Positions 19,073-46,784 are shown, counted from the first letter of the stretch. The stretch is DNA of 64,000 nt from Nemertoderma westbladi (GCA_032718475.1 JAUCBJ010001674.1:21368-85367), one strand, 5' to 3'. The notes: generated by a model not told the origin, from the sequence alone. Numbers and translations: made by a program.

Positions 19073-19207
19073 TCACAGATCCATTAGCAATATGGTTGGG
19101 TCTTCCACTGCAGACTTGATCTTCTTTAGGAAGGTAACTGCCTCGCGGCCATCTATTAGTCTGTGGTCGTAGGTCAATGCGAGATACATCATTGGGCGAA
19201 TAACAAC
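19073..19207 (-). CDS. DLST: DLST (dihydrolipoamide S-succinyltransferase) terminal coding exon: [44 protein letters not shown]
   Basis: Manual translation of the minus strand. It contains the catalytic DHRLIDG motif and the typical E2o C-terminus. Acceptor ...ttctattag at 19208-19209 and TGA at 19073-19075; 135 nt, phase 0. Confidence 0.95.
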
Positions 19208-19237
19208 CTAATAGAAACAGCTAGCTGTTAGCGCTGA

Positions 19238-23845: not shown

Positions 23846-23994
23846 AGCCACCGTTATAGAACCAGAGATAAAAGATATATCTGAAAATACTATCCTGTAT
23901 ATCTGCAATTTACATTCCCTTCACTCGCCACCAATCTATCGTAGATTTATACCATGACCAACAACTGTATATATTAGGTTATGTTTATACTTAC

Positions 23995-24162
23995 ATTCCC
24001 TTCTCTCGCTACCGGTCTATCCTGCACTGCATGCATCCCCAGGATGGCGCTCTGAGGTAGGTTTATTATCGGAGTACCGAACATTGACCCAAACACTCCG
24101 CCATTACTGATTGTGAAAGTGCCTCCCTCCATATCGTCCACCTCCAATGTGTTGGTTCGCGC
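23995..24162 (-). CDS. DLST: DLST internal exon: [56 protein letters not shown]
   Basis: Contains the [29 protein letters not shown] acyltransferase signature. Acceptor tttttag at 24163-24164 and donor gtaagt at 23989-23994; 168 nt, phase 0/0, joins the terminal exon in frame. Confidence 0.95.
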
Positions 24163-24229: not shown

Positions 24230-24476
24230 ATTAGTGGGCGAGTCACGAAGTGAGCGAAGCCTTAGTATATGGGTGCCATTAACGAGTTGTCTGTCGTCGT
24301 CGCCGTAAATTTTTGATCGCTAATAACTCGGTCATTTCTAGATGAAAATAAACGAAACTTGGTACGTTTGTAGTCCGGCAAAAGTATAGAAAGAATCGGA
24401 AGTTTGGTAAAAACGAACGAACGACGAACGAACGAACGCAACGAGTTCACAGTGGATACGAGTATCCATCTGCCAT
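24230..24476 (+). mobile_element. Probable short non-autonomous Helentron/DINE-like element in a DLST intron
   Basis: GAGCGAAGC motif near the 5' end, (GTC)n/CTGTC microsatellite, (ACGA)n tract and a terminal hairpin TGGATAC-GA-GTATCCA. Family assigned by architecture only; boundaries approximate. Confidence 0.4.
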
Positions 24477-25305
24477 AAATCAGCAGCTACTCTCACAGTT
24501 TCGAGACTTTGCACAGTTATAAAGGTCGTTAGTCTCCGTTTAGGGAAATTATTTTAAGACAAAACAGGACGAGCGCAACGAGGCTAATGAAGGAGAAGAG
24601 TATTATAAAACTAAAAATGTCATACTTAACTTAAATAGCTCTATTTAGAAGGTTTACAAATGACAGTTAAAGTGTGTAAGGGCGGGCAAACTGATATGGA
24701 TCTTTATTTTTACAACTAGTTTATCACAAACTGATAGCATCGCCTTCACTCATATATATTTTGCGATTGACGGCTTTCGTATATCTAATAGGGATGAGTA
24801 TAATATACTTTCTAATATAGGCTCCAGTGCTGCACGAAGGCCTCACGAACGTGTTCTAACAGACAAGAAGTCAAAAACCTTAAAATATTGTCCCAACATA
24901 TAAATAACAATTCAATGAGACCCATAAAGTGCATGCAACAAAAGTTGCCAGTTAAAGACATTCACATGATCGGCAGGTTTCGAAGCAGCTGTGGGTTACA
25001 TGCTATATGGCACCAGTAGGGAATATATAAGCTCTAAAGGGAGAAGAAACATGTACCAAGAAAAGAAAGTTAGAAGCATAAGTAACTAACCACTGCACTG
25101 GGAAGCAAGACAACATACTTAGTACTTATTACTTTAATTTAAAATGATAGCAATTATTTAACTCATACCAGAGTGTGTTTGACGAACAACTTATTCAGTT
25201 GCGGCTGCGAACCTTACTACTCACTGGTGTATCATCATACTCAGTGTTAAAGGATATTAATTGATTGATCCATGTAGGTACCATGGCAACAATAAGGCAA
25301 CTAAC

Positions 25306-25463
25306 CTTGGCAACCAGGTCAGCGATAGCCTTCTCTATATTCACGTAGTTCATATTCTCAACATTTCTTACGACCGGAACCACAAGTCCTTTAGGGGCAG
25401 CAACAGCCACAGATATATCGATGTAATCCCGGTACACAATCTCATTGGAATCGTGGTCAATCA
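25306..25463 (-). CDS. DLST: DLST internal exon: (V)[52 protein letters not shown]
   Basis: Contains the [19 protein letters not shown] motif of E2o. Acceptor ttttttttctatag at 25464-25465 with a phase-1 start (TG ATT GAC); donor AAG|gttagt; 158 nt, joins the next exon in frame. Confidence 0.94.
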
Positions 25464-25482
25464 CTATAGAAAAAAAACGAAT

Positions 25483-28400
25483 ATTATTGGTTAATATCCC
25501 CTTTGATACTAACCTGCATTTACTATTGGTTAATCTTCCCTTTGATACTAATCTGCGTTTACTATTGGTTAATCTTTCCTGTGATACTAACCTGCGTTTA
25601 CTATTGGTTAATCTTCCCTTTGATACTAATCTGCGTTTACTATTGGTTAATCTTTCCTGTGATACTAACCTGCGTTTACTATTGGTTAATCTTCCCTTTG
25701 ATACTAATCTGCGTTTACTATTGGTTAATCTTTCCTGTGATACTAACCTGCGTTTACTATTGGTTAATCTTCCCTTTGATACTAACCTGCGTTTACTATT
25801 GGTTAATATTTCCTTTGATACTAACCTGCGTTTACTATTGGTTAATCTTTCCTTTGATACTAACCTGCGTTTACTATTGGTTAATCTCCCCTTTGATACT
25901 AACCTGCGTTTACTATTGGTTAATCTTCCCTTTGATACTAATCTGCGTTTACTATTGGTTAATCTTTCCTGTGATACTAACCTGCGTTTACTATTAGTTA
26001 ATCTTCCCTTTGATACTAATCTGCGTTTACTATTGGTTAATCTTTCCTGTGATACTAACCTGCGTTTACTATTGGTTAATCTTCCCTTTGATACTAATCT
26101 GCGTTTACTATTGGTTAATCTTCCCTTTGATACTAACCTGCGTTTACTATTGGTTAATCTTCCCTTTGATACTAATCTGCGTTTACTATTGGTTAATCTT
26201 TCCTGTGATACTAACCTGCGTTTACTATTGGTTAATCTTCCCTTTGATACTAATCTGCGTTTACTATTGGTTAATCTTCCCTTTGATACTAACCTGCGTT
26301 TACTATTGGTAAATCTTTCCTTTGATACTAACCTGCGTTTACTATTGGATAATCTTCCCTTTGATACTAATCGGCGTTTACTATTGGTTAATCGTTCCTT
26401 TGATACTAACCTGCATTTACTATTGGCTAATCTTCCCTTTGATACTAACCTGCGTTTACTATTAGTTAATCTTCCCATTGATACTAACCTGCGTTTACTA
26501 TTGGTTAATCGTTCCTTTGATACTAATCTGCGTTTACTATTGGTTAATCTTCCCTTTGACACTAACCTGCGTTTGCTATTGGTTAATCGTTCCTTTGATA
26601 CTAACCTGCGTTTACTATTGGATAATCTTCCCTTTGATACTAATCGGCGTTTACTATTGGTTAATCGTTCCTTTGATACTAACCTGCATTTACTATTGGC
26701 TAATCTTCCCTAAGATACTAACCTGCGTTTACTATTAGTTAATCTTCCCATTGATACTAACCTGCGTTTACTATTGGTTAATCGTTCCTTTGATACTAAC
26801 CTGCGTTTACTATTAGTTAATCTTTCCTTTGATACTAACCTGCGTTTAATATTGGTTAATCGTTCATTTGATACTAACCTGCGTTTACTATTGGTTAATC
26901 TTTCCTTTGATACTAACCTGCGTTTACTATTGGTTAATCTTCCCTTTGATACTAACCTGCGTTTACTATTGGTTAATCTTCCCTTTGATACTAACCTGCG
27001 TTTACTATTGGTTAATCTTCCCTTTGATACTAACCTGCGTTTACTATTGGTTAATCTTCCCTTTGATACTAACCTACGTTTACTATTGGCTATTCTTCCC
27101 TTTGATACTAACCTGCGTTTACTATTGGTTAATCTTCCCTTTGATACTAACCTGCGTTTACTATTGGTTAATCTTCCCTTTGATACTAACCTGCGTTTAC
27201 TATTGGTTAATCTTCCCTTTGATACTAACCTGCGTTTACTATTGGCTATTCTTCCCTTTGATACTAACCTGCGTTTACTATTGGCTATTCTTCCCTTTGA
27301 TACTAACCTGCGTTTACTATTGGTTAATCTTCCCTTTGATACTAACCTGCGTTTACTATTGGCTATTCTTCCCTTTGATACTAACCTGCGTTTACTATTG
27401 GTTAATCGTCCCTTTGATACTAACCTGCGTTTACTATTGGTTAATCTTTCCTGTGATACTAACCTGCGTTTACTATTGGTTAATCTTCCCTTTGATACTA
27501 ACCTGCGTTTACTATTGGCTAATCTTCCCTTTGATACTAACCTGCGTTTACTATTGGTTAATCTTCCCTTTGATACTAACCTGCGTTTACTATTGGTTAA
27601 TCGTTCCTTTGATACTAACCTGCGTTTACTATTGGTTAATCTTCCCTTTGATACTAACCTGCGTTTACTATTGGCTAATCTTCCCTTTGATACTAACCTG
27701 AGTTTACTATTGGTTAATCTTCCCCTTGATACTAACCTGCGTTTACTATTGGTTAATCTTTCCTTTGATACTAACCTGCGTTTACTATTGGTTAATCTTC
27801 CCTTTGATACTAACCTGCGTTTACTATTGGCTAATCTTCCCTTTGATACTAACCTGCGTTTATTATTGGTTAATCTTCCCTTTGATACTAACCTGCGTTT
27901 ACTATTGGTTAATCTTCCCTTTGATACTAACCTGCGTTTACTATTGGTTAATCGTTCCTTTGATACTAACCTGCGTTTACTATTGGTTAATCTCCCCTTT
28001 GATACTAACCTGTGTTTACTATTGGTTAATCTTCCTTTTGATACTAACCTGCGTTTACTATTGGTTAATCTTCCCTTTGATACTAACCTGCGTTTACTAT
28101 TGGTTAATCTTCCCTTTGATACTAACCTGCGTTTACTATTGGTTAATCGTTCCTTTGATACTAACCTGCATTTACTATTGGCTAATCTTCCCTTTGATAC
28201 TAACCTGCGTTTACTATTAGTTAATCTTCCCTTTGATTCTAACCTGCGTTTACTATTGGTTAATCTTCCCTTTGATACTAACCTGCGTTTACTATTGGTT
28301 AATCTTCCCTTTGATACTAACCTGCGTTTACTATTGGTTAATCTTTCCTTTGATACTAACCTGCGTTTACTATTGGTTAATCTTCCCTTTGATACTAATC

Positions 28401-29197
28401 TGCGTTTACTATTGGTTAATCGTTCCTTTGATACTAACCGGCGTTTACTATTGGTTAATCTTCCCTTTGATACTAACCTGCGTTTACTATTGGTTAATCT
28501 TCCCTTTGATACTAACCTGCGTTTACTATTGGTTAATCTTCCCTTTGATACTAACCTGCGTTTACTATTGGTTAATCGTTCATTTGATACTAACCTGCGT
28601 TTACTATTGGTTAATCTTTCCTTTGATACAAACCTGCGTTTACTAATGGTTAATCTTCCCTTTGATACTAACCTGCGTTTACTATTGGTTAATCTTCCCT
28701 TTGATACTAATCTGCGTTTACTATTGGTTAATCTTTCCTTTGATACTAACCTGCGTTTACTATTAGTTAATCTTTCCTTTGATACTAACCTGCGTTTACT
28801 AATGGTTAATCTTCCCTTTGATACTAACCTGCGTTTACTATTAGTTAATCTTTCCTTTGATACTAACCTGCGTTTACTATTGGTTAATCTTCCCTTTGAT
28901 ACTAACCTGCGTTTACTATTGGTTAATCTTCCCTTTGATTCTAACCTGCGTTTACTATTGGTTAATCTTCCCTTTGATACTAACCTGCGTTTACTATTGG
29001 TTAATCTTCCCTTTGATACTAACCTGCGTTTACTATTGGTTAATCTTCCCTTTGATACTAACCTGCGTTTACTATTGGCTATTCTTCCCTTTGATACTAA
29101 CCTGCGTTTACTATTGGTTAATATTCCCTTTGATACTAACCTGCGTTTACTATTGGTTAATCTTCCCTTTGATACTAACCTGCGTTTACTATTAGTT
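25483..29197 (-). repeat. 39-bp intronic minisatellite (about 95 copies); sense-strand unit CCAATAGTAAACGCAG|GTTAGTATCAAAGGGAAGATTAA = end of the preceding DLST exon plus start of its intron
   Basis: Period 39 seen directly. The unit encodes P-I-V-N-A + G followed by the donor GTTAGT, which splices in frame to TG ATT GAC of the 25463 exon to give PIVNAVID, the conserved DLST QPVVNAVID segment. Confidence 0.95.
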
Positions 29198-29234
29198 AAT
29201 AATAATAATAATAATAATACACAATTTCTTATTA

Positions 29235-31484: not shown

Positions 31485-32676
31485 TGTTCGCGCTTTCAGA
31501 CCTTTGGCAGTTTAACCCGCCAAATTAGAATGTCTTCTAGATAATAAATCGCTTTTTAGCCTATGACAAGTATTTGATTCACTACACTAGTCGAAACCAA
31601 TCTGTGCGCGATCATTCACCCGCTGGATATTCCCGGGAGATTGGGTTCGACGGTTTAATTTTATTGCTATGTAAGCCTAATGTATTATTCGACTGACAGT
31701 ATTATATAATCTCTGACAATATTATTCACCTTCGGTAATATTAACAGTTCCTTTAGGACGTGGCGCTTTATCTATATAAACAGAGTTATGACTTAAACTA
31801 CTCACAACGATATGGCTTAATTATAATTCACATATATGGCGCATTCTTTAGGAATGCTTCTTTAACAGACTCACTCATACACAATGCTGCACAATACTGC
31901 ACACTAATCTGCCGATCTTCACTGATTTTAGTCACATATAAAAGGAACACAGACTGACTCATGTAGGGTCTATCAAATAACATTAGATTCACTTCAAACC
32001 ACTTTAACATAAGTCACAATCGTTTATCTGTAACCTTTCTCTCTTACCTTCGGTATATCAAGAATATTGGGTGTCGGGGTTATTTCTCGTTATTCCAATA
32101 TAATAATTCATCAACAAATATAATGAATAACCGACAACAAATAGCAGTATGCAGTATTCACAAAGCCAGTTATTAAAGGCCGTGACTACGGTGTGTCAAA
32201 TGCGAGTTAAATGCGAGGTGCAGTTAAAGGATATATGTCCTTATAATTAAACCTACTAGTGTTGCGCTAAAAAGCAGAAAACATAAAACACTAAAAAGCC
32301 GTTCTTTCGTGGCTTTGAAAAACTCGTGACTACTGCTCTATACGAGGATACCAACTCCCTTATTCCACGAAGCTCCCGTTCAACACAGAGAAAGAGCAGT
32401 GAGATAGGAAATTTTCAGTTCAGCAGCTCTGTGATAGGTCAAAATCAAGGCTAACTCAAATTCTATTGGGAGATACAAAAACAAGGCTATGACGCAACCT
32501 CCCTAGGCTTGTTGGCCGATTAAACAGAGCCCAGATGCCTGCGTACAGCAAATCAGCCAATAAGCTGGTAACTTGCACTATTTTTAACTATAGATCACTT
32601 TGAGAGTATTCTTAGCGACTGGGGGGGAACTGGCCAACAAGGCAAACGAATCAGTTATCCCACAAAAGCTTTTACA
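31485..32676 (-). repeat. 3' LTR (1192 bp)
   Basis: TGTTCGCG...TTTTACA on the plus strand; direct repeat of 44087-45278. I saw a single mismatch by eye (31651 C vs 44253 T). Confidence 0.96.
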
Positions 32677-32685
32677 CCGCTCCCA
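32677..32685 (-). promoter_or_regulatory. Putative polypurine tract (TGGGAGCGG) abutting the 3' LTR
   Basis: Short G-rich tract directly upstream of the 3' LTR on the element strand. Confidence 0.55.
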
Positions 32686-34108
32686 GAAAATGGGATTTAA
32701 GTCTATAAAATATAACAAATCACAGTTTCTAAAATATAAAAATACTCTAAACAGTTAGTCTTTCTTGCGCGGACGGCGTTTACGCAGTTTCTTGAGGCTA
32801 GCAAGAGTCCTTTTCTCTTTGGGGGGAAGCCACTTTACTAGGAGGGCCATAACTCCTGGGTGAAGGGTGCAATATGATTGCATCAGAAGGTGTAGGATTA
32901 TGGTCGAGGTATCTGCCGTTTCGATATGCTTCTCCTCGAGCTGATTTTCCTCCGCTCGTAGCTGGATACGTTCATCCAAAAACTCTCGCAGAGAATAGGA
33001 TCGTCCAAGTTCGATAACTTCTTAGAGATTCTGGATTTCCCAATCGAATTGAGATAAGGCCAATTCGTTTATCGATTGGACTTACTGTTATAACTTACGT
33101 TTATATGAACAAACGCAGGTTTCTTTTTTGATCTTTATAGAATAGCGTTTAACTCGTTTCGTACAACGCTCTCCTTCACCTTGATGAGGGGTTGTATCGC
33201 GTTAAACGGGAACGACCATACGGTTGGATAGTGATATTAGGTGTCCGCGTCACAATCCGGCTAGGTAAGATGGGCGGCTAGCTAGAAATCACTGTCGGAG
33301 TGTTACCGATTAATTGTTAGGGTAGCACTAGATCTTTGAACAGTGAATACAGTCCGCGAGGTTCCGCGACACCACCAGGATCGCAGGTCTGAGGTCCAAC
33401 TAAGGAATGAGGAGGTTTGACCGAGTATTCCGGGACTCTGATCGTAGGTTTACTCCAGGATCGTTCGAGCCGAGTGAGCATAGGTGATACGTCAACAAGT
33501 TTCGGTTTACGTGGATGTTTATGTCTTTCCGTTTATTAGTTGAGTCTAGGGCATTTATCGTAATAATACCAAAGACGCACGTCTGGTAGGGTAAACGCGG
33601 GTGATATTTATTTGTTGTTACAATGCTTCTATCAAGAATTCCAAATATACGTTGGAGTTACCGCGTCCATTTGTTTCTTTAGTGTCTTTTCTTTCGAGTC
33701 AATTTCGAATATAATTTTCGCATTCGAATTTCAGTTTATGGTTCCGACTCCGCTGGGCAGGATATATAGTCGACATAGTCTGTATTGTGTAAATCGATAG
33801 GATGACCAGTAGTTAAGAAGCCCATATACGTACCATTACGCCGCGTATATCGAGCAGCGAATTTTCTATAGTCCAACTCGCGCGAGCTGCTCTTGGGACA
33901 TTGGCGGTTCGATATAACGACCATCGTCCTCCGCAGCAGTTGGACTAACGTCGCCGCGTATTAAGCTATCAACAAACGCTTGTAAAAGTAGAGTATATCG
34001 CTCCCCGATACCAAGACCATCTTCTATCAACTCCGTCATATCTGCTATATATGAGTTTATCCATATTATAATGAGTCCACATTTAGGCGAGCGGGCGTCG
34101 CTGCCTAC

Positions 34109-35448
34109 TAGTGTTGAGAACTGAATCAATTTTGACTAATTTCAGTTACAGTTACAGTTTCAGTATTCAAAGTTTTGCATTTCAGTTACAGTTTCAGTAT
34201 TCAAAGTTTTGCATTTCAGTTACAGTTACAGTTTCAGTATTACAATGTGTAACATTTCAGTTACAGTTACAGTTTCAGTATTACAAAATTGAGCATTTCA
34301 GTTTCAGTTACAGTTTCAGTTATAGATTCAATATATATGATCTCACGTAGTAAGCAGTCATCTGAAACTAAAAATGAGGCACTTTAATATATTACTGTTA
34401 TATACGCTAATAATAATGTTCATTACGAAACGTCCTCTTTGTAGAGCTAATAGGTAGTTGTTGTAGGAAAGTTGGACCCACTCTATGGTAATATTTTGTA
34501 ACTAATATACTGATAGTATGTAATGAAAGTGGCACGTCACAAGACCACACTAAAGGCACCCACATTTTACTGTACATCTTGTTTCAGTGCTTGTACACTT
34601 ATTGTTATCATTTATTGTTTTGGTTATAAAGCCATGCTTCTGAATCCTGCTCATTTTCCTTAATTCGTAATTTGTTTTAGTAATCATATATTTATTGTTT
34701 TGGTTAGACCCACCTCGATAAGCTGCTCCTTTCACTTTTAAGTTTAATTTTGTAATTTATAATGGTAAACTTGATCAAAATTTAATTTCCAGTGTGCCTC
34801 TAGTGTGATTGTGATATTAATAGTACCGGGTAACATTAATAATTCATAATGTAAAATATATATCCGTTATTATCCCTCTACCATTAGGCCTAACTTTTCT
34901 TTGTTTATCTAAAACATTTACATTTAATATGAAGCAAAAGTGGTGATAAGGCTGATAATAGTCTAATAGTTGAGTCCGATGAACATAGACTATATGCTAG
35001 ATCTTCGTTCACTACTTGACTCTCCAAATAAATCACATTTGAGCTAAGTGGGCAATGGGTCTTTGATTTTATATTGTGTAATATTATGGTTTTGTTCAGA
35101 AGTGGGAAAAACGAGATTGTTTTTTCTTTATAACAATGTTTTAAAAATGATACCTATGGTAACCACTGTTATTCATTTATTAAACTATACTCTATACGTT
35201 ATTACAATGCTGTTTTAAATGCTTATTCATGTTAATTGTGTGATTGAGAACTGAATCGGATTTTGTTAATTTCAGTTTCAGTTTCAGTTACAGTATTCAA
35301 AATTCGTAATTACAGTTTCAGTTACAGTTACAGTATTCAAAGTTCGCAATTACAGTTACAGTTATAGTTACAGTATCAAAAAAATCATCAAAACCATTCA
35401 GTTACAGTTGCAGTTACAGTATAATTACAGTTACAGTTCTCAACACTA
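34109..35448. mobile_element. hAT-type non-autonomous DNA transposon (1340 bp) inside the LTR element; 8-bp TSD CTGCCTAC
   Basis: TIR TAGTGTTGAGAACTG...CAGTTCTCAACACTA; TSD at 34101-34108 and 35449-35456; subterminal CAGTTA/CAGTTT hexamer arrays at both ends. Confidence 0.92.
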
Positions 35449-37173
35449 CTGCCTACCCCAATCAACCCCCGGACAGTACGAGATCCTCAGCGCCGATGTG
35501 TCGTCGCCGCTGTACTTTCGCCAACGACGTAGCCGCACAACGACAACGACAACCGGCACAAGTCACTCAACTGTCCGTCCCAAAGGCTTAGATGTACTTC
35601 AGGTTTTCCTTGGAGAGTTAGGTTACTTTACGATTGCGACTGGCTACTGTAAACACACCTTAGTAGTAACATTCGCCTATAAACTCACAAGTACCACACA
35701 CACAACTTGTCACAAATTACACACACTCGGGTCACTTGTCCGTTAGTCAATGCCTTCCAGAATGTCACTGTATTATTATGTATCCTTGGATACTATCAGT
35801 GCACTATTTATTCCCTATGCTATTCGATGGGACAAGCTTTCTATTGTTCTTTTAACTCAATTCTAATTCTAGCGTGGTTGTTGCTATGGTGACATTATGT
35901 AAAGCTAGCGGTAGAATTAGGGTGATTCCAATGCATACAGATCTGGGATGTTATTTAATAGGAATTCTTTAATAGTCAATGTCCTGTTTATACATGACTT
36001 TACGAATTTTATCGGCTATTAACTATGTTTGGGAGACTTTCGTACACGCATACGCATAATAATATAAATCTCTGCTCCCTTGATCTATTAATTAATGGAA
36101 TTTTGGGAATGTTATAAATTGCGTAAAAATGGCAATTTATTAAATTCATTAAAAGGCATGAATTTAAATTTATTCCCTGAAATTTTATTATTTGATAATT
36201 AAATGGACATATTTTGATTCTAGAACATGTCTAGGGACACAAGATCCTTAATTCTATGACAATTGTCTTTTTTAAGAATATCGGTAAATGCTACGATATC
36301 TTAATTGACTAGAATTGTTGAAGGATCTGAATTTTACAGATTTTGATTTATTAGATTTGCAAATATTAAATAATTAATATTTGAGATGGGCACCAATTTA
36401 TTCCAGAACTTGTCTGGGGACGTTAACCACTGATTCTAGAATTTGTCTTTCAAGTATATCGGTGGGTGCCGCGATATCTTAATCGACTAGAATTACAGAT
36501 GGTCAAAGGGTTTAACAGATTTATTTTGCGTTATACGCTACTGTTAAAGGGACATCACGCTACTATATGTATTATTTAATATACGGTATGAGAGCAATAT
36601 CGCACGAAGCAATGTCAGTGTGAAGAGGCAAGTCGTTTCCAAGGTCTACCCAGAGCTTGGTTTAGCCGAGACACGAGGATCTGAACTTTGCATTCCTAAT
36701 ACTCTGCCTACCAATAATACTTAAATATAGTAGTGGCTTTATTGTACTTTAATAAGTACGGACATTTCATCTTACTGTAGTTACGTATTTATAATATAAT
36801 ACGGACAGTAAGGAAAGAGAAAAATAATTATTTCTCGCCGTTGCACTAAATATAATATAAGTAATTACGTACGTAATAAACACGAATATATATTGCACTA
36901 ATCTACTAAATAATCGCTAAATTAACATTCTACTAAATTAAATAAAACGATTATAATAAAATTACATAGTAATACATACATAAATATAAAAATAATAAAA
37001 TAATATAAAATAATAGAGTCACACACCCACTCCATATGTTATTACGTTATGGAGTCCCTAGATGTTTGAAGGATTAGGGAGGTGGTCGTGGGATGAGAAT
37101 CTTGCCTTCCACAGTTTCCGGAGAGTCCTCCATTCCCTTCCGGTAAACACAAACGACCGACTGGGTGATTGAG

Positions 37174-40100
37174 TCACTGCATCCTGAATACAATTCCAGG
37201 TTTCCTCTTCGTCCTGGAATAGTGACGATAGAAACATTGCTCAAAGTATATGACGGCGTCACAAAGCCGATTCCAGGAGCTATAGTGGTCCGTCGCTCTC
37301 TGCAGGAGAGGTGAGAGTCCCTGCGAGACGTCTGATGTTCCAGAGCTCCAATCGCTCTCTCTGATCTTCATGAAGGATCCACTCGCGGTGGGGAGGTCCA
37401 GATCCACGGCGTCGTCCCTGGCAATATGTACTACCGACAGATCTATCCCGGGTTCAAATAACTCCGCTCCACCCGTCCGGGTTTTAGGTTTAACTTTCTC
37501 CGCTCCCTTGGCTGGTCTAATCTCAGTCGGAGTAAGATGGGGAGGCCATTCATCCTCCTTACTCAGGAAGTCGGGTTCACCTAACCGGTCTGTAGTATCT
37601 GTCAGTTCTTGAGGAGTTGCTCCTCTGGAAGCGATGTCAGTTGTATTCATCGTCTTGGGGCAATATCTCCATTGATCTACATTGGAGTTAAGATTGTCAT
37701 TATCTGAGGAGTGTGGTGTTCCCTCAGTTGGGTCGTCTCCCTCACTATTATCATCTTCCCATTCACTTACCTGGCAGACGCGATCTTGAAGCAGTCTTTC
37801 CCTGAGCGTTCTACGGGAAGGTCCAGTAAGGTACCAACCTACTCTAGTTCTTACCGCATAGGTCTGTAGTGGCTGCGGTTGAGCAGGCCGTTTCTCTAAT
37901 GTCTCCAGCGCCTCATGCGCGTTTTGGCCGATGAGTATTTGCACTCCAGGATAATCAGTCTGGAATCGAGGTATGTTAAGATGTTGGATGCTCTCATCCT
38001 CGTCCCAATTATAAAGGTCTGCTTGTGTAGTAGCGAAGTTCTTTATAGCCACCATTTTCACTGACCTGATGCTATGTTCTCCTAGTTCGTCCTGGGGGGT
38101 GGACAACTCACCTATATAATAGTCGGCAGCTACAGTAGAATTCCAAACCTGCATGATCCCTGACATGTTTAGCTTGGTTCGGAACTTGGGTTGTCCAGCA
38201 AAGATGACTTCGGCTAGTTCTTTATCGATGAATGTTCCTGTGCTACCGGAGTCCAGGAGGGCGTTCACTATATAGCTCTTCTGAGGTCCGTGGACCCGTA
38301 ACTGGACTACAGGAAATTCTCGGATTCCTATATTGGAAGTTGGCGCTTTCCAAGATGGTTGTTGATCGGAAGTAGTTAAGGTAAGGTCGCTGTCTGTGTC
38401 TTTCTCATACACAAATGCTCGATACACTGCGGTGGTGTTTATTAGGTAACAGGATTCGTTTTGGTCGGAGAACTCGTCCGTATAGAATCCTTCCATCTCA
38501 GATTGATCAGTGTCGTTCACATCACTGAATTGGACATGTAGTTCGGACTCACTTACCTGACTCGGGCTGTTTCGTTCGAATTCCGTGTGCAACAAGATAT
38601 GATGTTTTGCGCCGCACTTTGCACACCTTGCGTCGGAGTTACAGGTTCGCCGTTGGTGTCCTCGTCTGAGGCAATTATAACACAACCGCTTATCCCACAT
38701 GACTTCACGTCTATCCTTTAGTGATTTCCTCAGGAATTTATCACACGCATTTAAACGGTGGGGCCCGTCGCACAGCACACATTTGGGCTTGATGTTACTT
38801 ACTTTAACATGTGCTGTGTGGTGCACACTTGTTCTTTCCTCGGGCTTTCTCACCTGAATTCTTTTAGGAGACGTAGGAGGGGTTTTTTGTACCGGTTCCC
38901 TTCTGTCATTGGGTCGAGACTTGGATTTACTTACCTGATCTTTAGGCATTTTATTGACATAAGATCTGTCAGTGTCTTTCCCGCTGTCCTCTCCTTGAGA
39001 AGTTTGGCTTTCACCGTCGTCGGTATAACATACTGGTGTTACCCTTCTCCTAGAAACGGGTTTCTCACTTACCTTACTTTCCGCTGTCTTCTCTCTGGAC
39101 TGCTTTATGAGCTGTAATTTCACCTCGCTATCCAGGAATGACATGAGATCAGCCATGGTAGGGTCTCGTTGTTGTTGTTCCATCATATATAACACCTTCT
39201 TGTCCCAGCGTGTACCTACTCCACCCTTGGGCAAAGTAGATGCTAAGGCTCCTACAACCATAGAATTCTGGTATTCATGAGACTTACCTAACCAATCTAG
39301 TTGTCTACAGATCTCCTGAATCTCATCGGAAAACTCTATAATCCCGCTGCTAAGAAACTTTCGGGGCGCCATTAATTTCGCATATAAATACCTAGCTATG
39401 TTAGTCCTATTACCATACCTGATGTTTAGTGTATCCCAAACTTGTCTTAATCCGTCTGGATGTCCAATAAACTTTAACGCCATTAACTTGGGAGATCCTT
39501 CCAAGCACTCGATGAGGTATCTAAGTTTTTCTCCATTAGATAGTACAGAGTTCTGTATGTTATCTTTGTAATATTCATTAAAAGGTAACCATTTCATCTC
39601 ATCTCCATTGAACTTGACGATCTCTCCAACCTTTACCGCTTGCCGGGCTTCGGTTCTAGCCATTTGACGCGTAAAACTTTCTTGGGCCATCGTGCTATTT
39701 AATATCGAGTTATCGGTATATAAATTTCTAGGATTATGATCCGGTCTATAGGGAATATCACTATCAACAGGTCTATAATTACCCTTAATAGGGTTCACTA
39801 TAGGAGTTTCTACTTCGCTAGCAGTATAGATGCGTGTAGGCTCCACACCTTGCGCATGAGATACTTCAGACCTAACGGGTTGACACATTGTTACAGAGGG
39901 TGGTGGTATACCTCTTTGAGTATTTACTAATTTATCGCGCTCTAGCGCGATACTTTGCTGCACTTCTTGCAACTCTAGTCTACTTTCCCTTACTGTGCCC
40001 TTGAATTGCTGGACAGTCTCCTGCATCTGCCCGAGCAGGATATCCATCCCCCGCCGTCTCTCGTCCACCCATTCGACCGCCGAAGCGGGAGTCGCCAACG

Positions 40101-41997
40101 TTGTAGCGGGCGGATGAGGGACAACGGGCGACAAATTATGAATATTTCGCTCGGGGTCCAGGACCTGAACTGTCTCTGGGGCAGTTCTACGGGGCACAGG
40201 TAGCTTAGTGCTATGCAGAGGGAATTTAGAAGTAGTTTCAGGGAGCACAAGTGTATCTATCACCGAAGGGGTGATTTCAAGAACAGGCCTAATTATTTCA
40301 GGCTCATCTACTATAGTAGGGAGTCTTTCTATTTTAATTATTTGGTCTGTGGGCTCTGTACTACCTAAGTTGGTGTTATTTAGTTGCCTTCTAACAGCTG
40401 GAGGCAAATCAGGCAATTTCTGACGGTGGAATGTTCTTTTACGTCTGCTTAGACGAGATCTATTTCCTTTGCCTTCAGTATCGGTGGTATCGCCTTCCTC
40501 AGATGATGTATATCCCTGTCTTTTGGGAGTAGATCGATTCATCATCTGCATATTGCTAGCCGTTAACTGTTTATTTATGCAGTCTTGATTCTCTTGAATG
40601 TTTTCCAATTCTAATTGGTTGGTTTCTTCGGCCGCTTTTGCCTCTGCCGCTGCCGCTTTTGCCTCTGCCGCTGCCTCTGCCGCTGCCGCCTTTCTTTCAG
40701 CTTCGGCCGCCTTTGCCTCTGCCGCTGCCGCTTTTGCCTCGGCCGCTGCCTCTGCCGCTGCCGCTTTTCTTTCAGCTTCGGCTACTTTCCTTTCCGCTTC
40801 GGCAGCTGCTACTGCTGCTTTCTTTCTGTCTTCTATACGTTTTTTCTTGACTTGTTCTTCTTGGACTCGTGTGATGCGGAGTTGTTCATCAAATTTAGCC
40901 TGGTTCGCAGCCCTCATTTCCACATCGATGGCATCCAACACAAGCTTGGTTCCTTCACTATTAGGGCTAAGTCCCTCTAACCTTCTCCTCAACTCGTCAT
41001 CACCTAAAAAACGTTGATAGTCTGACAGATAGATGTCAATGGCATCCCTCTTATGCGGTTTCTCTGCCGTCGCTTCACTTTCCACTTGGGAAAAAGTAGC
41101 GTCTGTTGATTCTCCATGGGTTGAGCGCTCCTCTAGCTGAGCTTTCCACTGAGCTGTTCCTTGAACCTGGAGACTCACCCTTTGAAACCAAGTCTTTACG
41201 GCAACTTGCAACGACGTGTCTTGCCTTCGTTTTGAAGCCTCCTCAAAGGCCGATAATATTAGCCTGATCCGCAAAACTCTTTCTCTAACTTGATAAAGCA
41301 GCGATCCCTGCTCTTGAGGTCCTTGAGGTTGTTGAAAAAGTTGCTTTTCTACTCGCTCCATAGAGCTGAAGAATCCCTGTGCGTATCCGGCTGCGGACCT
41401 CTTCCACACAGCTGGATCGATGGTTTCCTTGGCTACTCCCATCCGGTGTATGTCTTCCCAGGCAGCTTCTGATAAATCAAACGGGAGTCCGGGTCCGGGG
41501 AAGTTCCATTGCGACTCGACAATAGACTTCAGTTCTTCACTCGTGTATCCCGCGTAACTATCTCTAGTTGACCGTCGACTTCTCGCCCAATCGATCTGGT
41601 GTTCTTCCACCGCGATCAATAACCCAGCGAGCACGGCTGCAGGAAGGATGAGAAGGGGATCCGTATAAACCGCATCCGTCATCTCTGCTCCGCGCTCGGG
41701 TGTCAGCTCTACAGTATCCTCACTACTGGAGCTGCTGGGCCGCTGAGGAATAGGTTCTTGACTAGCGGGTTGTTGCTGTTCCGCTGCTTGTTGGTCCCGC
41801 TTGACCTGAGCTCGGGTGCCTATGATAGACCTACGATGTTGGACTAGCCTAGGTTCTGTTATTACTACTGGAGGGATGACCTTCCTCACAGTGGGAGGTG
41901 AACTGAACTTACGACCAGACGGTTGTACGTCTCGATCTGAGTTGCAGATGGTTACATCTAATAAACTGTCTGACAGGTTCTGCTTAGTATCAGACAT
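37174..41997 (-). CDS. BEL/Pao Gag-protease polyprotein (1607 aa) with RT, most of RNase H and integrase deleted
   Basis: DUF1759-like Gag core (KFNGDEMKWLPF..LSNGEKLRYLIECLEG); zinc knuckles (CVLCDGPH..C, CYNCLRRGH..C, CAKCGAKHHILLH); aspartic protease (ALLDSGS, ILIG, AVRTRVGWYLTGP). The protein then jumps to the RNase H tail (QWRYCP..N..DIASRG..EDEWP..YSSWNRL). Confidence 0.93.
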   Translation of the reverse strand: MSDTKQNLSDSLLDVTICNSDRDVQPSGRKFSSPPTVRKVIPPVVITEPRLVQHRRSIIGTRAQVKRDQQAAEQQQPASQEPIPQRPSSSSSEDTVELTPERGAEMTDAVYTDPLLILPAAVLAGLLIAVEEHQIDWARSRRSTRDSYAGYTSEELKSIVESQWNFPGPGLPFDLSEAAWEDIHRMGVAKETIDPAVWKRSAAGYAQGFFSSMERVEKQLFQQPQGPQEQGSLLYQVRERVLRIRLILSAFEEASKRRQDTSLQVAVKTWFQRVSLQVQGTAQWKAQLEERSTHGESTDATFSQVESEATAEKPHKRDAIDIYLSDYQRFLGDDELRRRLEGLSPNSEGTKLVLDAIDVEMRAANQAKFDEQLRITRVQEEQVKKKRIEDRKKAAVAAAEAERKVAEAERKAAAAEAAAEAKAAAAEAKAAEAERKAAAAEAAAEAKAAAAEAKAAEETNQLELENIQENQDCINKQLTASNMQMMNRSTPKRQGYTSSEEGDTTDTEGKGNRSRLSRRKRTFHRQKLPDLPPAVRRQLNNTNLGSTEPTDQIIKIERLPTIVDEPEIIRPVLEITPSVIDTLVLPETTSKFPLHSTKLPVPRRTAPETVQVLDPERNIHNLSPVVPHPPATTLATPASAVEWVDERRRGMDILLGQMQETVQQFKGTVRESRLELQEVQQSIALERDKLVNTQRGIPPPSVTMCQPVRSEVSHAQGVEPTRIYTASEVETPIVNPIKGNYRPVDSDIPYRPDHNPRNLYTDNSILNSTMAQESFTRQMARTEARQAVKVGEIVKFNGDEMKWLPFNEYYKDNIQNSVLSNGEKLRYLIECLEGSPKLMALKFIGHPDGLRQVWDTLNIRYGNRTNIARYLYAKLMAPRKFLSSGIIEFSDEIQEICRQLDWLGKSHEYQNSMVVGALASTLPKGGVGTRWDKKVLYMMEQQQRDPTMADLMSFLDSEVKLQLIKQSREKTAESKVSEKPVSRRRVTPVCYTDDGESQTSQGEDSGKDTDRSYVNKMPKDQVSKSKSRPNDRREPVQKTPPTSPKRIQVRKPEERTSVHHTAHVKVSNIKPKCVLCDGPHRLNACDKFLRKSLKDRREVMWDKRLCYNCLRRGHQRRTCNSDARCAKCGAKHHILLHTEFERNSPSQVSESELHVQFSDVNDTDQSEMEGFYTDEFSDQNESCYLINTTAVYRAFVYEKDTDSDLTLTTSDQQPSWKAPTSNIGIREFPVVQLRVHGPQKSYIVNALLDSGSTGTFIDKELAEVIFAGQPKFRTKLNMSGIMQVWNSTVAADYYIGELSTPQDELGEHSIRSVKMVAIKNFATTQADLYNWDEDESIQHLNIPRFQTDYPGVQILIGQNAHEALETLEKRPAQPQPLQTYAVRTRVGWYLTGPSRRTLRERLLQDRVCQVSEWEDDNSEGDDPTEGTPHSSDNDNLNSNVDQWRYCPKTMNTTDIASRGATPQELTDTTDRLGEPDFLSKEDEWPPHLTPTEIRPAKGAEKVKPKTRTGGAELFEPGIDLSVVHIARDDAVDLDLPTASGSFMKIRESDWSSGTSDVSQGLSPLLQRATDHYSSWNRLCDAVIYFEQCFYRHYSRTKRKPGIVFRMQ

Positions 41998-43250
41998 GAC
42001 TAGGTATGTACAGTTGAATGCCTACTGCTATATTACAGTCTAAGCAAGTCTAGTAACTCAGTATTAACTGCTAGCCTAGTAATTAATTACCGTTACTGCT
42101 ACTCAGTGTAGCGTGATATATAATATATTATAATAGAATACCGGTATGCTTATAGTATATATAAGTATTATTACAGACTAGGTTTATCTCAGAATACCGG
42201 TATAATTTTAGCACAAATATATATAAATATATAATAGGCCTATCGGGAATACCGGTATATCAATTATTTTAAAATAACTGAATTTCTGAATTTCAAGGGT
42301 TACTTGGTTACTTTACTTACTTTATTACCGTTATTTGAGCAGTAATCCAACTGATATTGAGACCTAATGGTTGTATGGTAGGCCTACGATTTATAAATCG
42401 TTAGATTTGATTTATAATATATATATACCCGTTTAATGGGTTTTGTCAATGTTGAAATAAATGTTATTATTTCTGGGGTAATCACTACACAAAGCGGTAC
42501 GCTTTCAGTGAAGTGTTACTTATAGGACACTAAAACAAATAATTCTAATTTACCTAAGTTACTTAATACTACAAATTACGTACAATTCGGGTGAGATTAC
42601 AATCTCTAAATAAACACAAAAATTTACAAAAACACAAAATACGAAATTTTTTAGGGTATTTTTACAAGAAGTCTACAAACCAGCCTAACAAAGGGTTAGA
42701 AAACCGGTTATTACAACGGACAGGGTACTACGGTATTTGAAATAATAAGTAGTAGTAAATACACTGCGTTGTCTAGATAGGAAAATACCACCGCCTGACG
42801 ACCTATAGCCGTATCGCTATAGGTTCTACGTTATGTATCACGGAGTGTTCCTACCTAGAAGTTAATAGAGCTAATCGAATGTGCCTATCAACCACTTTAC
42901 AACACAGATATAATGCCTACACTAATTACTTCGGAAAGCACTGTACACTAAACCCTAAATTAGGTACGAGTACTTGTATAACATATAATCTGTAGTTAAA
43001 TATACTTGAACAGCTAAAAGAACCACGGCATCTGCTGGAGTGACCGATGCACAAAATCACCAGTCTTTACCTACGCCGAGCAGCCCGTGTAGTACCGGGG
43101 TTAATTTAACTATAGCGGTATGTATAACAAACACAATTACTGTATGAACAAACTTGGGGAATGAATGTTGCGGATAATCGCATAAACTCTGAATAATAAA
43201 TATTACGCTACGCGTACAAACCACTCAAACAAAATACAGACCGAACACTG

Positions 43251-43730
43251 ACAGACTACTATCAAGCCTAAACAAACTACGGTATATGCAGACTCCGAAA
43301 TGATTAGGGAGTATGCGCTCTAACCCAGTAGTGCGACTTATTCTTTAGTTGGGGGTTTACCTTACAGCGTTCGCTGCCCCTACTGCCTAACCGTACTTAA
43401 TCGGACAGATGATCTACACACGCGGCAATCCGTTCAGACCTAATAACAGCCAGACAACTATCCAGCCTACAAATTATCTAAGTAAAATTATACGCTACCC
43501 GTACAGACTTACACAAACAAAGTACAGACTAAACGATGGCAGACTACTCTCAAGCCTAAATAAACCGCAGGACATGCAGACTCCGAAATGATTAGGGAGT
43601 ATGCGCTCTAACCCAGTAGTGCGACTTATTCTTTAGTTGGGGGTTTACCTTACAGCGTTCGCTGCCCCTACTTCCTAACCGTACTTAATCGGACAGGTGA
43701 TCTACACACACTGCAATTCGTTCGGACTTA
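43251..43730. repeat. Direct duplication (period 288 bp) in the 5' leader of the LTR element
   Basis: GACTCCGAAATGATTAGGGAGTATGCGCTC...ATCGGACAG occurs at 43291 and 43579 with high identity. Confidence 0.85.
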
Positions 43731-44074
43731 ACAGCAATCAGACAACAGCTCAGCCTACAAATCGTCTGTACAATCTGATCAGGCTTACACGCCTTCTGTT
43801 CAATACTGGCCTACAAATAAATAAAACTTGACAGAAATAAGTAAAAATCTCAATAAAAAACCAGGGCTGCAGTCCCTGATTAATTATTAAGACCTACCGG
43901 TATACAACTATCAAAATCGAATAATACTGCTGTACCTGTACTGCTGTAGGTACCGGTCCGGGTGGTTAGGTAGTCAGGCCTACTGGTACCGGTTCTGGCA
44001 GTTGGGCCTACTGACCTACAGATGTACCGGTTGACCAGTACTTTCAACTTTATTGCTTACTGCAATAAAGAAGC

Positions 44075-44086
44075 TATATCCTTTAA
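44075..44086 (-). promoter_or_regulatory. PBS-position sequence TTAAAGGATATA (not TGG-starting), complementary to LTR positions 44826-44837
   Basis: Directly abuts the 5' LTR and is a perfect 12-bp inverted repeat with a site inside the LTR. Confidence 0.6.
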
Positions 44087-45278
44087 TGTTCGCGCTTTCA
44101 GACCTTTGGCAGTTTAACCCGCCAAATTAGAATGTCTTCTAGATAATAAATCGCTTTTTAGCCTATGACAAGTATTTGATTCACTACACTAGTCGAAACC
44201 AATCTGTGCGCGATCATTCACCCGCTGGATATTCCCGGGAGATTGGGTTCGATGGTTTAATTTTATTGCTATGTAAGCCTAATGTATTATTCGACTGACA
44301 GTATTATATAATCTCTGACAATATTATTCACCTTCGGTAATATTAACAGTTCCTTTAGGACGTGGCGCTTTATCTATATAAACAGAGTTATGACTTAAAC
44401 TACTCACAACGATATGGCTTAATTATAATTCACATATATGGCGCATTCTTTAGGAATGCTTCTTTAACAGACTCACTCATACACAATGCTGCACAATACT
44501 GCACACTAATCTGCCGATCTTCACTGATTTTAGTCACATATAAAAGGAACACAGACTGACTCATGTAGGGTCTATCAAATAACATTAGATTCACTTCAAA
44601 CCACTTTAACATAAGTCACAATCGTTTATCTGTAACCTTTCTCTCTTACCTTCGGTATATCAAGAATATTGGGTGTCGGGGTTATTTCTCGTTATTCCAA
44701 TATAATAATTCATCAACAAATATAATGAATAACCGACAACAAATAGCAGTATGCAGTATTCACAAAGCCAGTTATTAAAGGCCGTGACTACGGTGTGTCA
44801 AATGCGAGTTAAATGCGAGGTGCAGTTAAAGGATATATGTCCTTATAATTAAACCTACTAGTGTTGCGCTAAAAAGCAGAAAACATAAAACACTAAAAAG
44901 CCGTTCTTTCGTGGCTTTGAAAAACTCGTGACTACTGCTCTATACGAGGATACCAACTCCCTTATTCCACGAAGCTCCCGTTCAACACAGAGAAAGAGCA
45001 GTGAGATAGGAAATTTTCAGTTCAGCAGCTCTGTGATAGGTCAAAATCAAGGCTAACTCAAATTCTATTGGGAGATACAAAAACAAGGCTATGACGCAAC
45101 CTCCCTAGGCTTGTTGGCCGATTAAACAGAGCCCAGATGCCTGCGTACAGCAAATCAGCCAATAAGCTGGTAACTTGCACTATTTTTAACTATAGATCAC
45201 TTTGAGAGTATTCTTAGCGACTGGGGGGGAACTGGCCAACAAGGCAAACGAATCAGTTATCCCACAAAAGCTTTTACA
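44087..45278 (-). repeat. 5' LTR (1192 bp)
   Basis: Direct repeat of 31485-32676; candidate polyadenylation signal AATAAA on the minus strand at 44262-44267. Confidence 0.96.
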
Positions 45279-45975
45279 GGTCTGGATATAACGGATTGTT
45301 ATCATCCACGTTTATAGACTCTATATCTATCATATCGATGGTACTGGTATGTGTAATAATAACATCGAGGAGATGGCCAGATCGGTGCGTGGGGGAGTTG
45401 ACCAATTGTTTCAGACAAAGGGATTCTAACAAATCTCTGAAGCGGTTGGTTGCATTCGAATTCTCATCGAGGTGAATATTTAGGTCGCCGACTACAATTG
45501 TATCTACAGTTGAATCGGTAAATAACGCAGAAAGAAAATAATTAAATTCATCTAGGAAGCAATTATATAGTTCGCCGCTGACTAGTGGAGAAGGACGATA
45601 TACTACAACAAATCTAATTGGACCGACTGTTGTTTTGATATTAATAGCAATGTTCTCGAACGACGTATAATTTTCATTAAAATTAAGAGAGGATAAACAG
45701 CCTTTTAGTTCCTTGCGGTGGAGTATCCCAACCCCACCTCCTCTAGTTAATCGTGGTTTATGGTCTAAGTTGTGAGTATTTGGGGTGAGCTGAGTAGTTA
45801 CACTGTTGCAAAAATCGTGTACAGTAAGCCAAGTTTCAGCAATTCCTAGAATATCAAAGTTATTATCCTCGACGAATAAACGAGTCTGAGATGTCTTGTT
45901 AACTATTGACCATGGATTAATATAGCATAACTTAAGAGAGTCACTACAGTTATCATTGGAAGCGTTACCCTCAAG
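45279..45975 (-). pseudogene. LINE ORF2, 5' part: APE-type endonuclease domain (open frame)
   Basis: Manual translation: LKLCYINPWSIVNK..DILGIAETWL..RGGGVGIL..VVVYRPS..IVVGDLNIH..PTHRSGHLLDVII..PD|HYPV. It continues in frame at 31479 once the LTR element and one TSD are removed. Confidence 0.92.
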
Positions 45976-46625
45976 TCACTCCGATCCAACAGGATGTGGA
46001 GGAGCTGCCGAGGAGTCGGCAGTAGCAGTGGGATCGCGGCGTGGTCGAAGGTTAAACTGAGAACGTTCGGTGTCTGAAAGGCGATAGTTCCGTATTAAAA
46101 CACCGTCTTCCCAGTTGCTTGGATCCATGAGCTGTGTACGGTTGTCCTGTGTACAGGTAAGATGAAAAAGCGCGTGTTAGGTCGCCGAATGCGTTTGGTT
46201 CGGAATTCTGTCGGTTCGAGATCGGAACAACGTCGATGAAGGGAAGATTGTCGTGTGACAGGTACCCTTTAACATCATCAGCTGTAACTGTTCCAGCAAA
46301 CCGGCCTATATAGATATGAGCCGTGTCGAAATTCCGCCGAGGAGCGACTGCGAGACGAGTTCCGTGCTTTATACCGAGAGTAGTTGTACCGCGGCGTCTC
46401 GGTTCGGTGTCTGTTACAGGAGGAGATCTGATGGATGCTAGGGGCATCGGAGTAGAGAGTGCGGGCGCTGCGGGGGTGCCTGCTACAGAGGCCCAGGACC
46501 TGGGATTCTGGGTAGGCCTACCGGTAGCAGGATCCAAGCCTGTTTGGAGGTTCGGGGGAGGTGCTGACTGGATGGTGTCTATTAACTTATCTTTGGCGAT
46601 TATTGATTCGCGTTGGGCGGCGAAT
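45976..46625 (-). pseudogene. LINE ORF1 C-terminal fragment with a +1 frameshift at the A5 run 46165-46169
   Basis: SWASVA..HIYIGRF..VTADDVKGYL, then in the shifted frame AFHLTC..LMDPSNWEDGVLIRNY, a typical CR1/L2 ORF1 ending; stop TGA at 45976-45978. Confidence 0.75.
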
Positions 46626-46784
46626 ATATAATCTAATCTAATAATAATAATCTAATCTGCTGTATGTCTAAATATTGTTATAAAGATAATAATTAATAGT
46701 TTTGATTTGAGTTGATTTGATTTGCTTTTCTACGTCTATCTGTTTGGTTTCCTTTACATCAGTTCGGCTTTGAATAGTTAAGTT

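What the first reader, a model, noticed from the sequence alone, without database searches (positions are those of the whole stretch)
25464..29197. A minisatellite made of an amplified exon/donor junction: about 95 back-to-back 39-nt mini-intron-like units in DLST
Seen: on the gene strand each unit reads CCA ATA GTA AAC GCA G|GTTAGTATCAAAGGGAAGATTAA. Splicing any unit's G| to the exon at 25463 (TG ATT GAC) gives PIVNAVID. Known: animal DLST has QPVVNAVID here, with a phase-1 intron after the Ala codon. Seen: the copy nearest the exon leaves only a 50-nt intron (25464-25513: GTTAGT...ATTAACCAATAATATTCGTTTTTTTTCTATAG), whose AACCAATA matches the exon end. Inference: an ancestral intron of about 50 nt expanded to at least 3.7 kb by microhomology-driven tandem duplication of its own donor junction. 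Re-phased, each unit is GTTAGT...TTAAC...CAG, a candidate 39-nt intron separated by zero-length exons (CAG|GT). That creates dozens of competing donors and possible recursive (ratchet) splicing, and it resembles the tandem-duplication model of intron gain caught in progress.
Basis: partly seen in the sequence, partly recalled or inferred. Interest (0 to 1): 0.85.

Follow-up and report, generated by a model that had tools for sequence, protein, structure and literature searches.

The report
Stranded splice-donor "mirage" repeat in DLST
In an animal's DLST gene, the last 24 bases of an exon plus its splice signal are repeated 95 times just in front of the next exon, cut off from the source exon by transposons, yet the one spliced transcript seen skips every copy, so this is likely a harmless, large example of a repeat type already known from lancelets and human genes.

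Summary
The array is real: 95 head-to-tail 39-bp units (25491-29195, minus strand), 82 with an intact GT. One spliced contig from a public run shows that the DLST message ends its upstream exon in the unit's sequence (23 of 24 letters) and joins it straight to exon 25463. Each unit is therefore 24 nt of exon end plus 15 nt of intron start. This is a "mirage" or F7-type splice-donor minisatellite, a described class that this scan has also noted repeatedly in other genes of this genome.

The "ancestral 50-nt intron" is mostly a decayed repeat unit. None of 81 YAG|GT sites has the pyrimidine tract of a recursive site. Any retained unit puts a stop in the DLST frame. No intron is being gained.

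Two local twists. The source exon is not in the window: a LINE tail and at least 34.8 kb of other DNA lie 5' of the array, so the decoy donors sit at the acceptor end. The only branch-point-like motif of the real acceptor lies in the decayed last unit. Recursive use is unlikely but cannot be excluded from mature mRNA.

The parts
25491..29195 (-). 95 full 39-bp units; each is 24 nt copied from the end of the upstream DLST exon plus the first 15 nt of the intron (donor CAG|GTTAGT)
   Evidence: exon share from the spliced contig's loose end
25478..25498 (-). Decayed terminal unit (21 nt, 16 of 21 to the unit); holds the only yUnAy branch-point-like motif of the last 50 nt, predicted branch A at 25491 (-28)
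   Evidence: use as branch point is inferred
25464..25477 (-). Non-repeat 3' end of the intron: T8 tract and acceptor AG
   Evidence: junction seen in the spliced contig
25306..25463 (-). DLST exon, 158 nt, begins in phase 1 (V-IDHDS...LVAK)
   Evidence: 0 differences to the X5 contig
23995..24162 (-). DLST exon, 168 nt
   Evidence: 0 differences to the X5 contig, joint skips 1143 nt with GT..AG ends
23908..23940 (-). Single degenerate copy of the 168-nt exon's end and donor, 81 nt downstream (28 of 33; next best offset 15 of 33): a second, two-copy mirage in this gene
   Evidence: skipped by the X5 contig, whose other loose end reads into the last exon
19073..19207 (-). Last DLST coding exon, to the stop codon
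29201..31479 (-). 3' part of a LINE (reverse transcriptase, split over two frames); its (TAT)n tail abuts the array's first partial unit at 29200
   Evidence: Pfam RVT_1 E 1.6e-15; junction; same-register unit-to-tail junction in run X2
31485..45278 (-). LTR element nested in the LINE: 1192-nt LTRs at 45278-44087 and 32676-31485 that differ at 1 position, 5-bp target duplication, gag-like ORF with DUF1759 (BEL/Pao type, label recalled)
45284..46647 (-). 5' part of the LINE (endonuclease domain; the ORF before it has no Pfam match); its 5' flank is not array sequence
   Evidence: Pfam Exo_endo_phos E 1.3e-5; junction printed

Best explanation
The array is a tandem amplification of the DLST exon/intron boundary (24 nt of exon end plus 15 nt of intron start, a splice-donor "mirage") that likely arose by one short duplication at the exon edge, likely grew by slippage and unequal exchange, was likely separated from its source exon by later transposon insertions, and is likely removed as inert intron because the spliceosome would use only the first donor. 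Shown: the make-up of the unit, the mRNA junction without any unit (one sample), multi-unit duplications inside the array, and the LINE tail at its 5' end. Inferred: the order of events; that the true exon lies upstream of the window in the same gene copy (intron of at least 38.5 kb); that downstream donors stay silent because no good acceptor defines an exon in front of them and because using one would add an immediate stop codon; and that the real acceptor takes its branch point from the decayed last unit.
For: Spliced 1349-nt contig in run X5: 0 differences over 25305-25465 and 23993-24161, and a 188-nt loose end whose 30 printed letters read as ...ALKDQPIVNA and match the unit at 23 of 24 letters (compared by eye). 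The one differing letter is C in the contig and T in 95 of 95 units, and the C form is absent from the window, so the message comes from a real exon and from no unit in the window. Unit acceptor context is poor: 6-9 pyrimidines of 20 and longest run 2-3 in 94 of 94 units, against 12-15 of 20 and runs of 4-10 at the 3 true acceptors; 0 of 81 recursive-site motifs. In the DLST frame the commonest unit reads PIVNAG*YQRED*. Growth in blocks: lower mismatch at lags 2, 4 and 7 units (1.94-1.99 against 2.09-2.36 at the other 9 lags) and a 7-unit block repeated with 8 differences in 273 nt. No sign of selection on donors: 5 of 29 variant alleles fall in the 9 donor columns, 6.7 expected, p 0.27. Precedent: only the first donor is used in F7, LMNB2 and PDGF (PMC1557585); lancelet mirages do not disturb splicing (PMC3087553, PMC3902484).
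Against: Only one RNA-like run, and only assembled contigs, which drop rare forms; X5 is listed as 'DNA?' with no library record, and I infer RNA from the spliced, exon-only contig. The exon-to-first-unit junction was not seen in either DNA run laid (14 and 70 contigs), and no upstream exon is in the window, so the gene's continuity is not shown. The LINE's 5' flank is not array sequence, which a simple insertion into the array would give. In 6-16 and CBS two downstream pseudo-donors are used (PMC1557585). In UBC a tandem AGGT site with a weak acceptor score (-0.21) is used (PMC10809524), so a poor pyrimidine tract does not rule out use. 1 of the 3 true acceptors also fails the strict motif.
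Confidence: 0.72

Rival explanations
1. The CAG|GT sites act as dual-use or recursive sites: the large intron is removed in two or more steps, landing stochastically on units and leaving from the regenerated donor, with the same final mRNA.
For: 81 YAGGT sites in the array; a TTAAC motif lies shortly before the CAG of most units; the intron would be at least 38.5 kb, and recursive use rises with intron length in human data (PMC10156609); weak dual sites are used in the UBC tandem array (PMC10809524); mature mRNA cannot tell the routes apart.
Against: 0 of 81 sites have the Y5+N0-4YAGGT motif; the longest pyrimidine run is at most 3 in 94 of 94 units; variants are not depleted in the donor columns; 13 units have lost the GT.
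Confidence: 0.13
2. The DLST 3' half in this window is cut off from its 5' half: a LINE-mediated rearrangement, a duplicated 3' fragment or an assembly misjoin, so the array here is not inside a working intron.
For: No upstream exon in 34.8 kb 5' of the array; the LINE's two flanks do not match (array on one side, a BAF-like segmental repeat on the other); consensus-word depth in X1 is 2.2-2.4 times what the window's 95 units predict, so more units may lie elsewhere.
Against: Two exons match the expressed contig with 0 differences; the unit-to-tail junction is present in a second sample, X2, in the same register (20 loose letters, one contig), which argues against a pure assembly error; the extra depth also fits units left beside the true exon, or a one-haplotype baseline.
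Confidence: 0.11
3. One reading: a 50-nt ancestral intron with chance microhomology to the exon end expanded into stacked 39-nt mini-introns, an intron gain caught in progress.
For: The last GT and the acceptor are 50 nt apart and a branch-like motif lies between them; intron creation from mirage or AGGT-containing repeats is a published model (PMC3087553 Fig. 7 legend; PMC2812944; PMC10809524).
Against: 36 of the 50 nt are array-derived; the mRNA contains no unit and a single junction; units carry two stops in the DLST frame, so none can become coding exon; the intron position is, from recall only, shared with human DLST.
Confidence: 0.04

Closest known systems
Lancelet 'mirage' minisatellites (Adh3, troponin C, globins BflGb6 and BflGb9, PGBD5); PMC3087553 (6 passages read) and PMC3902484 (1 passage)
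   Same: Tandem repeat whose unit spans the host gene's exon-intron boundary; many but not all copies keep the splice signal; normal mRNA is made; edge units are more diverged.
   Different: 95 copies here against 3-6 in BflGb6; here the array is cut off from its source exon by transposons and ends 14 nt before the next exon.
Human F7 intron 7 37-bp VNTR, with 6-16, CBS intron 13, LMNB2 and PDGF intron 4 minisatellites; PMC1557585 (abstract, introduction, discussion read)
   Same: Near-identical donor sites reiterated into the intron; similar unit size; the most upstream donor is used.
   Different: 5-25 copies there, directly behind the exon; the F7 unit holds only 4 exon bases, against 24 here. 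In 6-16 and CBS two extra donors are used; that could not be tested here.
Recursive splice sites / ratchet points (Drosophila, human); PMC8605326 (12 of 16 passages), PMC10156609 (7 passages)
   Same: Juxtaposed AG|GT inside a long intron.
   Different: Known sites are ultraconserved (Drosophila) and were searched with an upstream pyrimidine tract (human); 0 of 81 sites here have that tract, and they come from copying an exon end.
UBC tandem dual-specific splice sites; PMC10809524 (abstract, section 7, discussion read)
   Same: AGGT once per repeat unit, unit length a multiple of three.
   Different: UBC units are 228-nt coding monomers that are variably kept in mRNA; these 39-nt units carry stops in the host frame and were not seen in the one mRNA contig.

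Membership tests
Mirage / F7-type splice-donor minisatellite | Tandem unit spans an exon-intron boundary of the host gene | tested here: met
   23 of 24 letters match the mRNA's exon end; donor follows in each unit
Mirage / F7-type splice-donor minisatellite | Many but not all copies keep the splice signal | tested here: met
   82 of 95 keep GT
Mirage / F7-type splice-donor minisatellite | Normal mRNA is made from the authentic site | tested here: met
   One spliced contig in one run, with the exon-specific letter that no unit has; minor isoforms not testable
Mirage / F7-type splice-donor minisatellite | First unit is contiguous with the true exon | tested here: inconclusive
   Exon not in the window; junction not among the 3 loose ends listed; no genome held
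Mirage / F7-type splice-donor minisatellite | Copy-number polymorphism or instability | tested here: inconclusive
   Word depth in X1 is 2.2-2.4 times the window's count, but contig depth is no copy number
Mirage / F7-type splice-donor minisatellite | Edge units escape homogenisation | tested here: met
   3' terminal partial unit 16 of 21, against a mean 3.3% divergence inside
Recursive splice site | Juxtaposed YAG|GT in a long intron | tested here: met
   81 sites; intron at least 38.5 kb if the gene is continuous
Recursive splice site | Pyrimidine tract before the AG (Y5+N0-4YAGGT, PMC10156609) | tested here: not met
   0 of 81
Recursive splice site | Splicing intermediates or lariats at the site | not testable with these tools
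   Only assembled contigs were offered
Recursive splice site | Conservation of the site across species | not testable with these tools
   No related eukaryote genome is searchable here
Intron gain by tandem duplication (Rogers model) | Duplicated exon sequence yields a new exon-exon junction at a formerly intron-free position | tested here: not met
   One junction and no unit in the mRNA contig; age of the intron position is recalled, not tested
UBC-type dual-specific splice-site array | Units are coding and variably kept in the mRNA | tested here: not met
   186 stops across the 95 units in the DLST frame; no unit in the contig

The most novel reading that the evidence does not exclude
This animal has a genome-wide process that preferentially amplifies exon edges, and the repeats have become working parts of splicing. 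In DLST the founding C-to-T change made a branch-point motif in every unit; the decayed last unit now serves the real acceptor, and the stranded array acts as a field of stochastic landing sites that lets a transposon-swollen intron of 38 kb or more be removed in steps.
Probability: 0.1. Interest if true: 0.7.

Novelty: new member of a known kind. Interest (0 to 1): 0.3.

Why it matters
Alone it is an ordinary, if large, member of a described repeat class. It is a clean natural test of donor choice: 82 near-identical donors, the last only 50 nt from the acceptor, lose to a donor that is likely at least 38 kb away, which favours first-donor or exon-definition rules over proximity. The wider interest is the genome: 16 of its 19 earlier notes fit the words 'splice satellite' (unchecked AI notes). 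If a whole-genome count showed that repeats arise at exon edges more often than chance, it would point to a mutational link between splicing or transcription and repeat birth, which PMC3087553 calls unclear.

Tried and rejected
No whole genome is held, so the upstream exon and a genome-wide search for the unit were out of reach. tblastn of 120 DLST homologues found only the three 3' exons plus weak PIVNA hits in the array. The run search listed no holder on record as RNA. X5 laid nothing on the last two units or on the array's 5' end; lack of contig cover is not evidence. The lay tool skipped the LINE-tail side of the second stretch as repeat, so no contig could be seen bridging that junction in place. 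A 27-nt unit pattern had 0 exact matches in metagenome and viral contigs: no foreign source and no extra locus. Selection against decoy donors: 11 of the 13 GT-less units lie in the last 30, but most alternate as a two-unit block, the last unit keeps GT and the allele count shows no excess; rejected. A coding role: one gene-strand frame and one plus-strand frame have a single stop each, as expected of any stop-free 13-codon repeat; not pursued. RNA structure masking the donors: three units fold at -15.7 kcal/mol, z -1.96, 7 of 200 shuffles as good, with a mostly open centroid; weak, not used. Intron-position conservation: the human c.1060-3 variant (PMC11148276, one table row) marks an acceptor that by my numbering (partly recalled) is the next intron, not this one; P0049 has intron-like residues right before VIDG, a weak hint only. 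Paper searches for a description of very large junction arrays returned only the lancelet and human cases and unrelated listings; the Drosophila intron-gigantism papers were seen as listings only. The original Adh3 mirage paper was not seen. No supplements were read; those of PMC3087553 (repeat alignments) and PMC10809524 (intron-repeat tables) may bear on how unusual 95 copies is.

Full report
Observation. The window is animal-type DNA; four large tandem arrays cover 35,046 of 64,000 bases. The finding's array is as described: period 39, 95.3 copies, 93% matches, no indels. The exon-like 16-mer occurs 95 times, all on the minus strand between 25514 and 29195, against 0.70 expected. There are 36 distinct units, the commonest in 28 copies, mean divergence 3.3%; 82 of 95 keep GT and 13 have AT.

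Host gene. The exon at 25463-25306 matches DLST. tblastn of 120 homologues finds three exons on the minus strand: 25463-25306, 24162-23995 and 19207-19073. It finds no upstream DLST exon in the 34.8 kb between the array and the window's end. No whole genome is held.

What the unit is. Five runs from three studies hold the stretch or a part of it; four were laid. Run X5 holds a 1349-nt contig that covers only the exons, with 0 differences, and skips the 1143-nt intron at GT..AG ends. It is recorded as 'DNA?'; I infer RNA from that shape. Its loose end beyond the 158-nt exon reads as ...ALKDQPIVNA. Compared by eye, it matches the unit at 23 of the last 24 exon letters and diverges further upstream. 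So each unit is 24 nt of exon end plus 15 nt of intron start. The differing letter is T in 95 of 95 units and C in the contig, and the C form is nowhere in the window. The message therefore comes from a true exon outside the window and carries no unit. This is one contig in one sample.

The '50-nt intron'. From the last GT to the acceptor is 50 nt. The first 15 are the donor part of a unit, and the next 21 match the unit at 16 positions (p about 2e-6). Only the last 14, a T tract and the AG, are non-repeat. The stretch is thus mostly a decayed edge unit, and the ancestral intron length cannot be read from it. The only yUnAy motif in it (motif recalled), TTAAC with the A at -28, lies in that decayed unit and depends on the C-to-T change fixed in all units. 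The other two DLST acceptors have such motifs at -19 and -21. That the real acceptor uses this repeat-derived branch point is an inference.

Are the units introns or ratchet points? Before each unit's CAG there are 6-9 pyrimidines in 20 and the longest run is 2-3, in 94 of 94 units. The three true acceptors have 12-15 and runs of 4-10. With the motif that PMC10156609 used to search for recursive sites, 0 of 81 YAGGT sites in the array qualify; 2 of 3 true acceptors meet its acceptor half and 1 does not. A retained unit would add a stop at once in the DLST frame. Donor columns are neither richer nor poorer in variants than the rest (5 of 29 alleles, 6.7 expected). Against this, PMC10809524 reports use of a weak acceptor in the UBC tandem array, and recursive removal would leave the same mRNA. 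I put it at about 0.13.

How it grew. Unit mismatches are lowest at lags 2, 4 and 7. A 7-unit block is repeated with 8 differences in 273 nt, and GT-less units alternate near the 3' end. This fits duplication in blocks by slippage or unequal exchange (established minisatellite behaviour; inference for this case). The next DLST intron holds a single degenerate copy of its own exon end and donor 81 nt downstream (28 of 33; next best offset 15 of 33), which looks like the two-copy starting stage.

The 5' end. The array stops at the (TAT)n tail of a LINE on the same strand (RVT_1 and endonuclease domains). An LTR element with 1192-nt LTRs differing at one position and a 5-bp target duplication sits inside that LINE, so it is recent. 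In run X2, from a different study than X1, one contig joins a unit to a TAT run in the same register, which supports the junction as real DNA. The LINE's other flank is a three-copy segment with a BAF-like ORF, not array. Either the intron is at least 38.5 kb with nested insertions, or this 3' half is detached. In X1 two consensus contigs have 72.8 and 84.6 times the depth of the flanking unique contig, where the window predicts 33.7 and 35.9. That may mean 110-130 further units beside the true exon, or only a one-haplotype baseline; the tool warns that depth is no copy number. Of 14 and 70 contigs laid in X1 and X2, the 3 loose ends listed lead only to the DLST acceptor or the TAT tail. The exon-side junction was not among them, so the test for a dispersed satellite has limited power.

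Known systems. Earlier notes of this scan gave me the term 'mirage' and the papers, which I then read. Tandem repeats across exon-intron boundaries are described in lancelet Adh3, troponin C, globins and PGBD5, where splicing stays normal and the mechanism of origin is called unclear (PMC3087553, PMC3902484). Human F7, 6-16, CBS, LMNB2 and PDGF have donor-reiterating minisatellites of 5-25 copies; the first donor dominates, and two more are used in 6-16 and CBS (PMC1557585). This array meets four of six features I listed for the class, with two inconclusive. It fails the pyrimidine-tract feature of recursive sites and the features of intron gain and of the UBC array. It is larger than the published cases I saw but smaller than several noted in this same genome (up to about 2,100 copies; unchecked AI notes). 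My paper searches found no description of such large arrays, but the library lacks most subscription papers and I read no supplements.

Verdict. Observation confirmed; first reading partly supported. New member of a known kind, interest 0.3. The local twists are the stranding of the decoy donors at the acceptor end and the likely repeat-derived branch point. The stronger lead is the genome-wide frequency of such arrays.

Noticed in passing
window 23908-23940 (-): Degenerate second copy of the 168-nt DLST exon's end and donor, 81 nt downstream (28 of 33); skipped by the X5 contig.
   Followed up: partly
window 46785-47273, 49495-49983, 51699-52187 (-): Three near-identical 162-codon stop-to-stop frames without introns in a segmental repeat (spacing 2710 and 2204); the first matches Pfam SAM_BAF, barrier-to-autointegration factor (E 1e-6, above cut-off). 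If the DLST intron is continuous they are nested in it, next to retroelements.
   Followed up: partly
window 19237-23845: 19-bp satellite, about 245 copies, fills the last DLST intron and ends about 30 nt before the acceptor; no clear exon origin by eye.
   Followed up: no
window 1-18577 and 55857-64000: A 21-bp satellite of at least 18.6 kb starts about 500 nt after the DLST stop codon; a 24-bp satellite of at least 8.1 kb runs off the other end.
   Followed up: no
window 31485-45278 (-): Very young LTR element (LTRs differ at 1 of 1192) nested in the LINE; its 1615-codon frame matched only DUF1759 in Pfam; it seems to carry further unrelated pieces, such as the 288-bp tandem pair at 43204-43762.
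   Followed up: partly
window 24236-24890: High-copy dispersed repeat in the 1143-nt DLST intron: hundreds of contigs per run lie on it.
   Followed up: no
window 53513-54438: 182-nt inverted repeat, 94% complementary, 562 nt apart; possibly a non-autonomous DNA transposon.
   Followed up: no
window 41003 (-): The only site in the 34.8 kb upstream of the array that meets the recursive-site motif lies inside the LTR element's long frame (1 of 45 YAGGT); likely chance.
   Followed up: no
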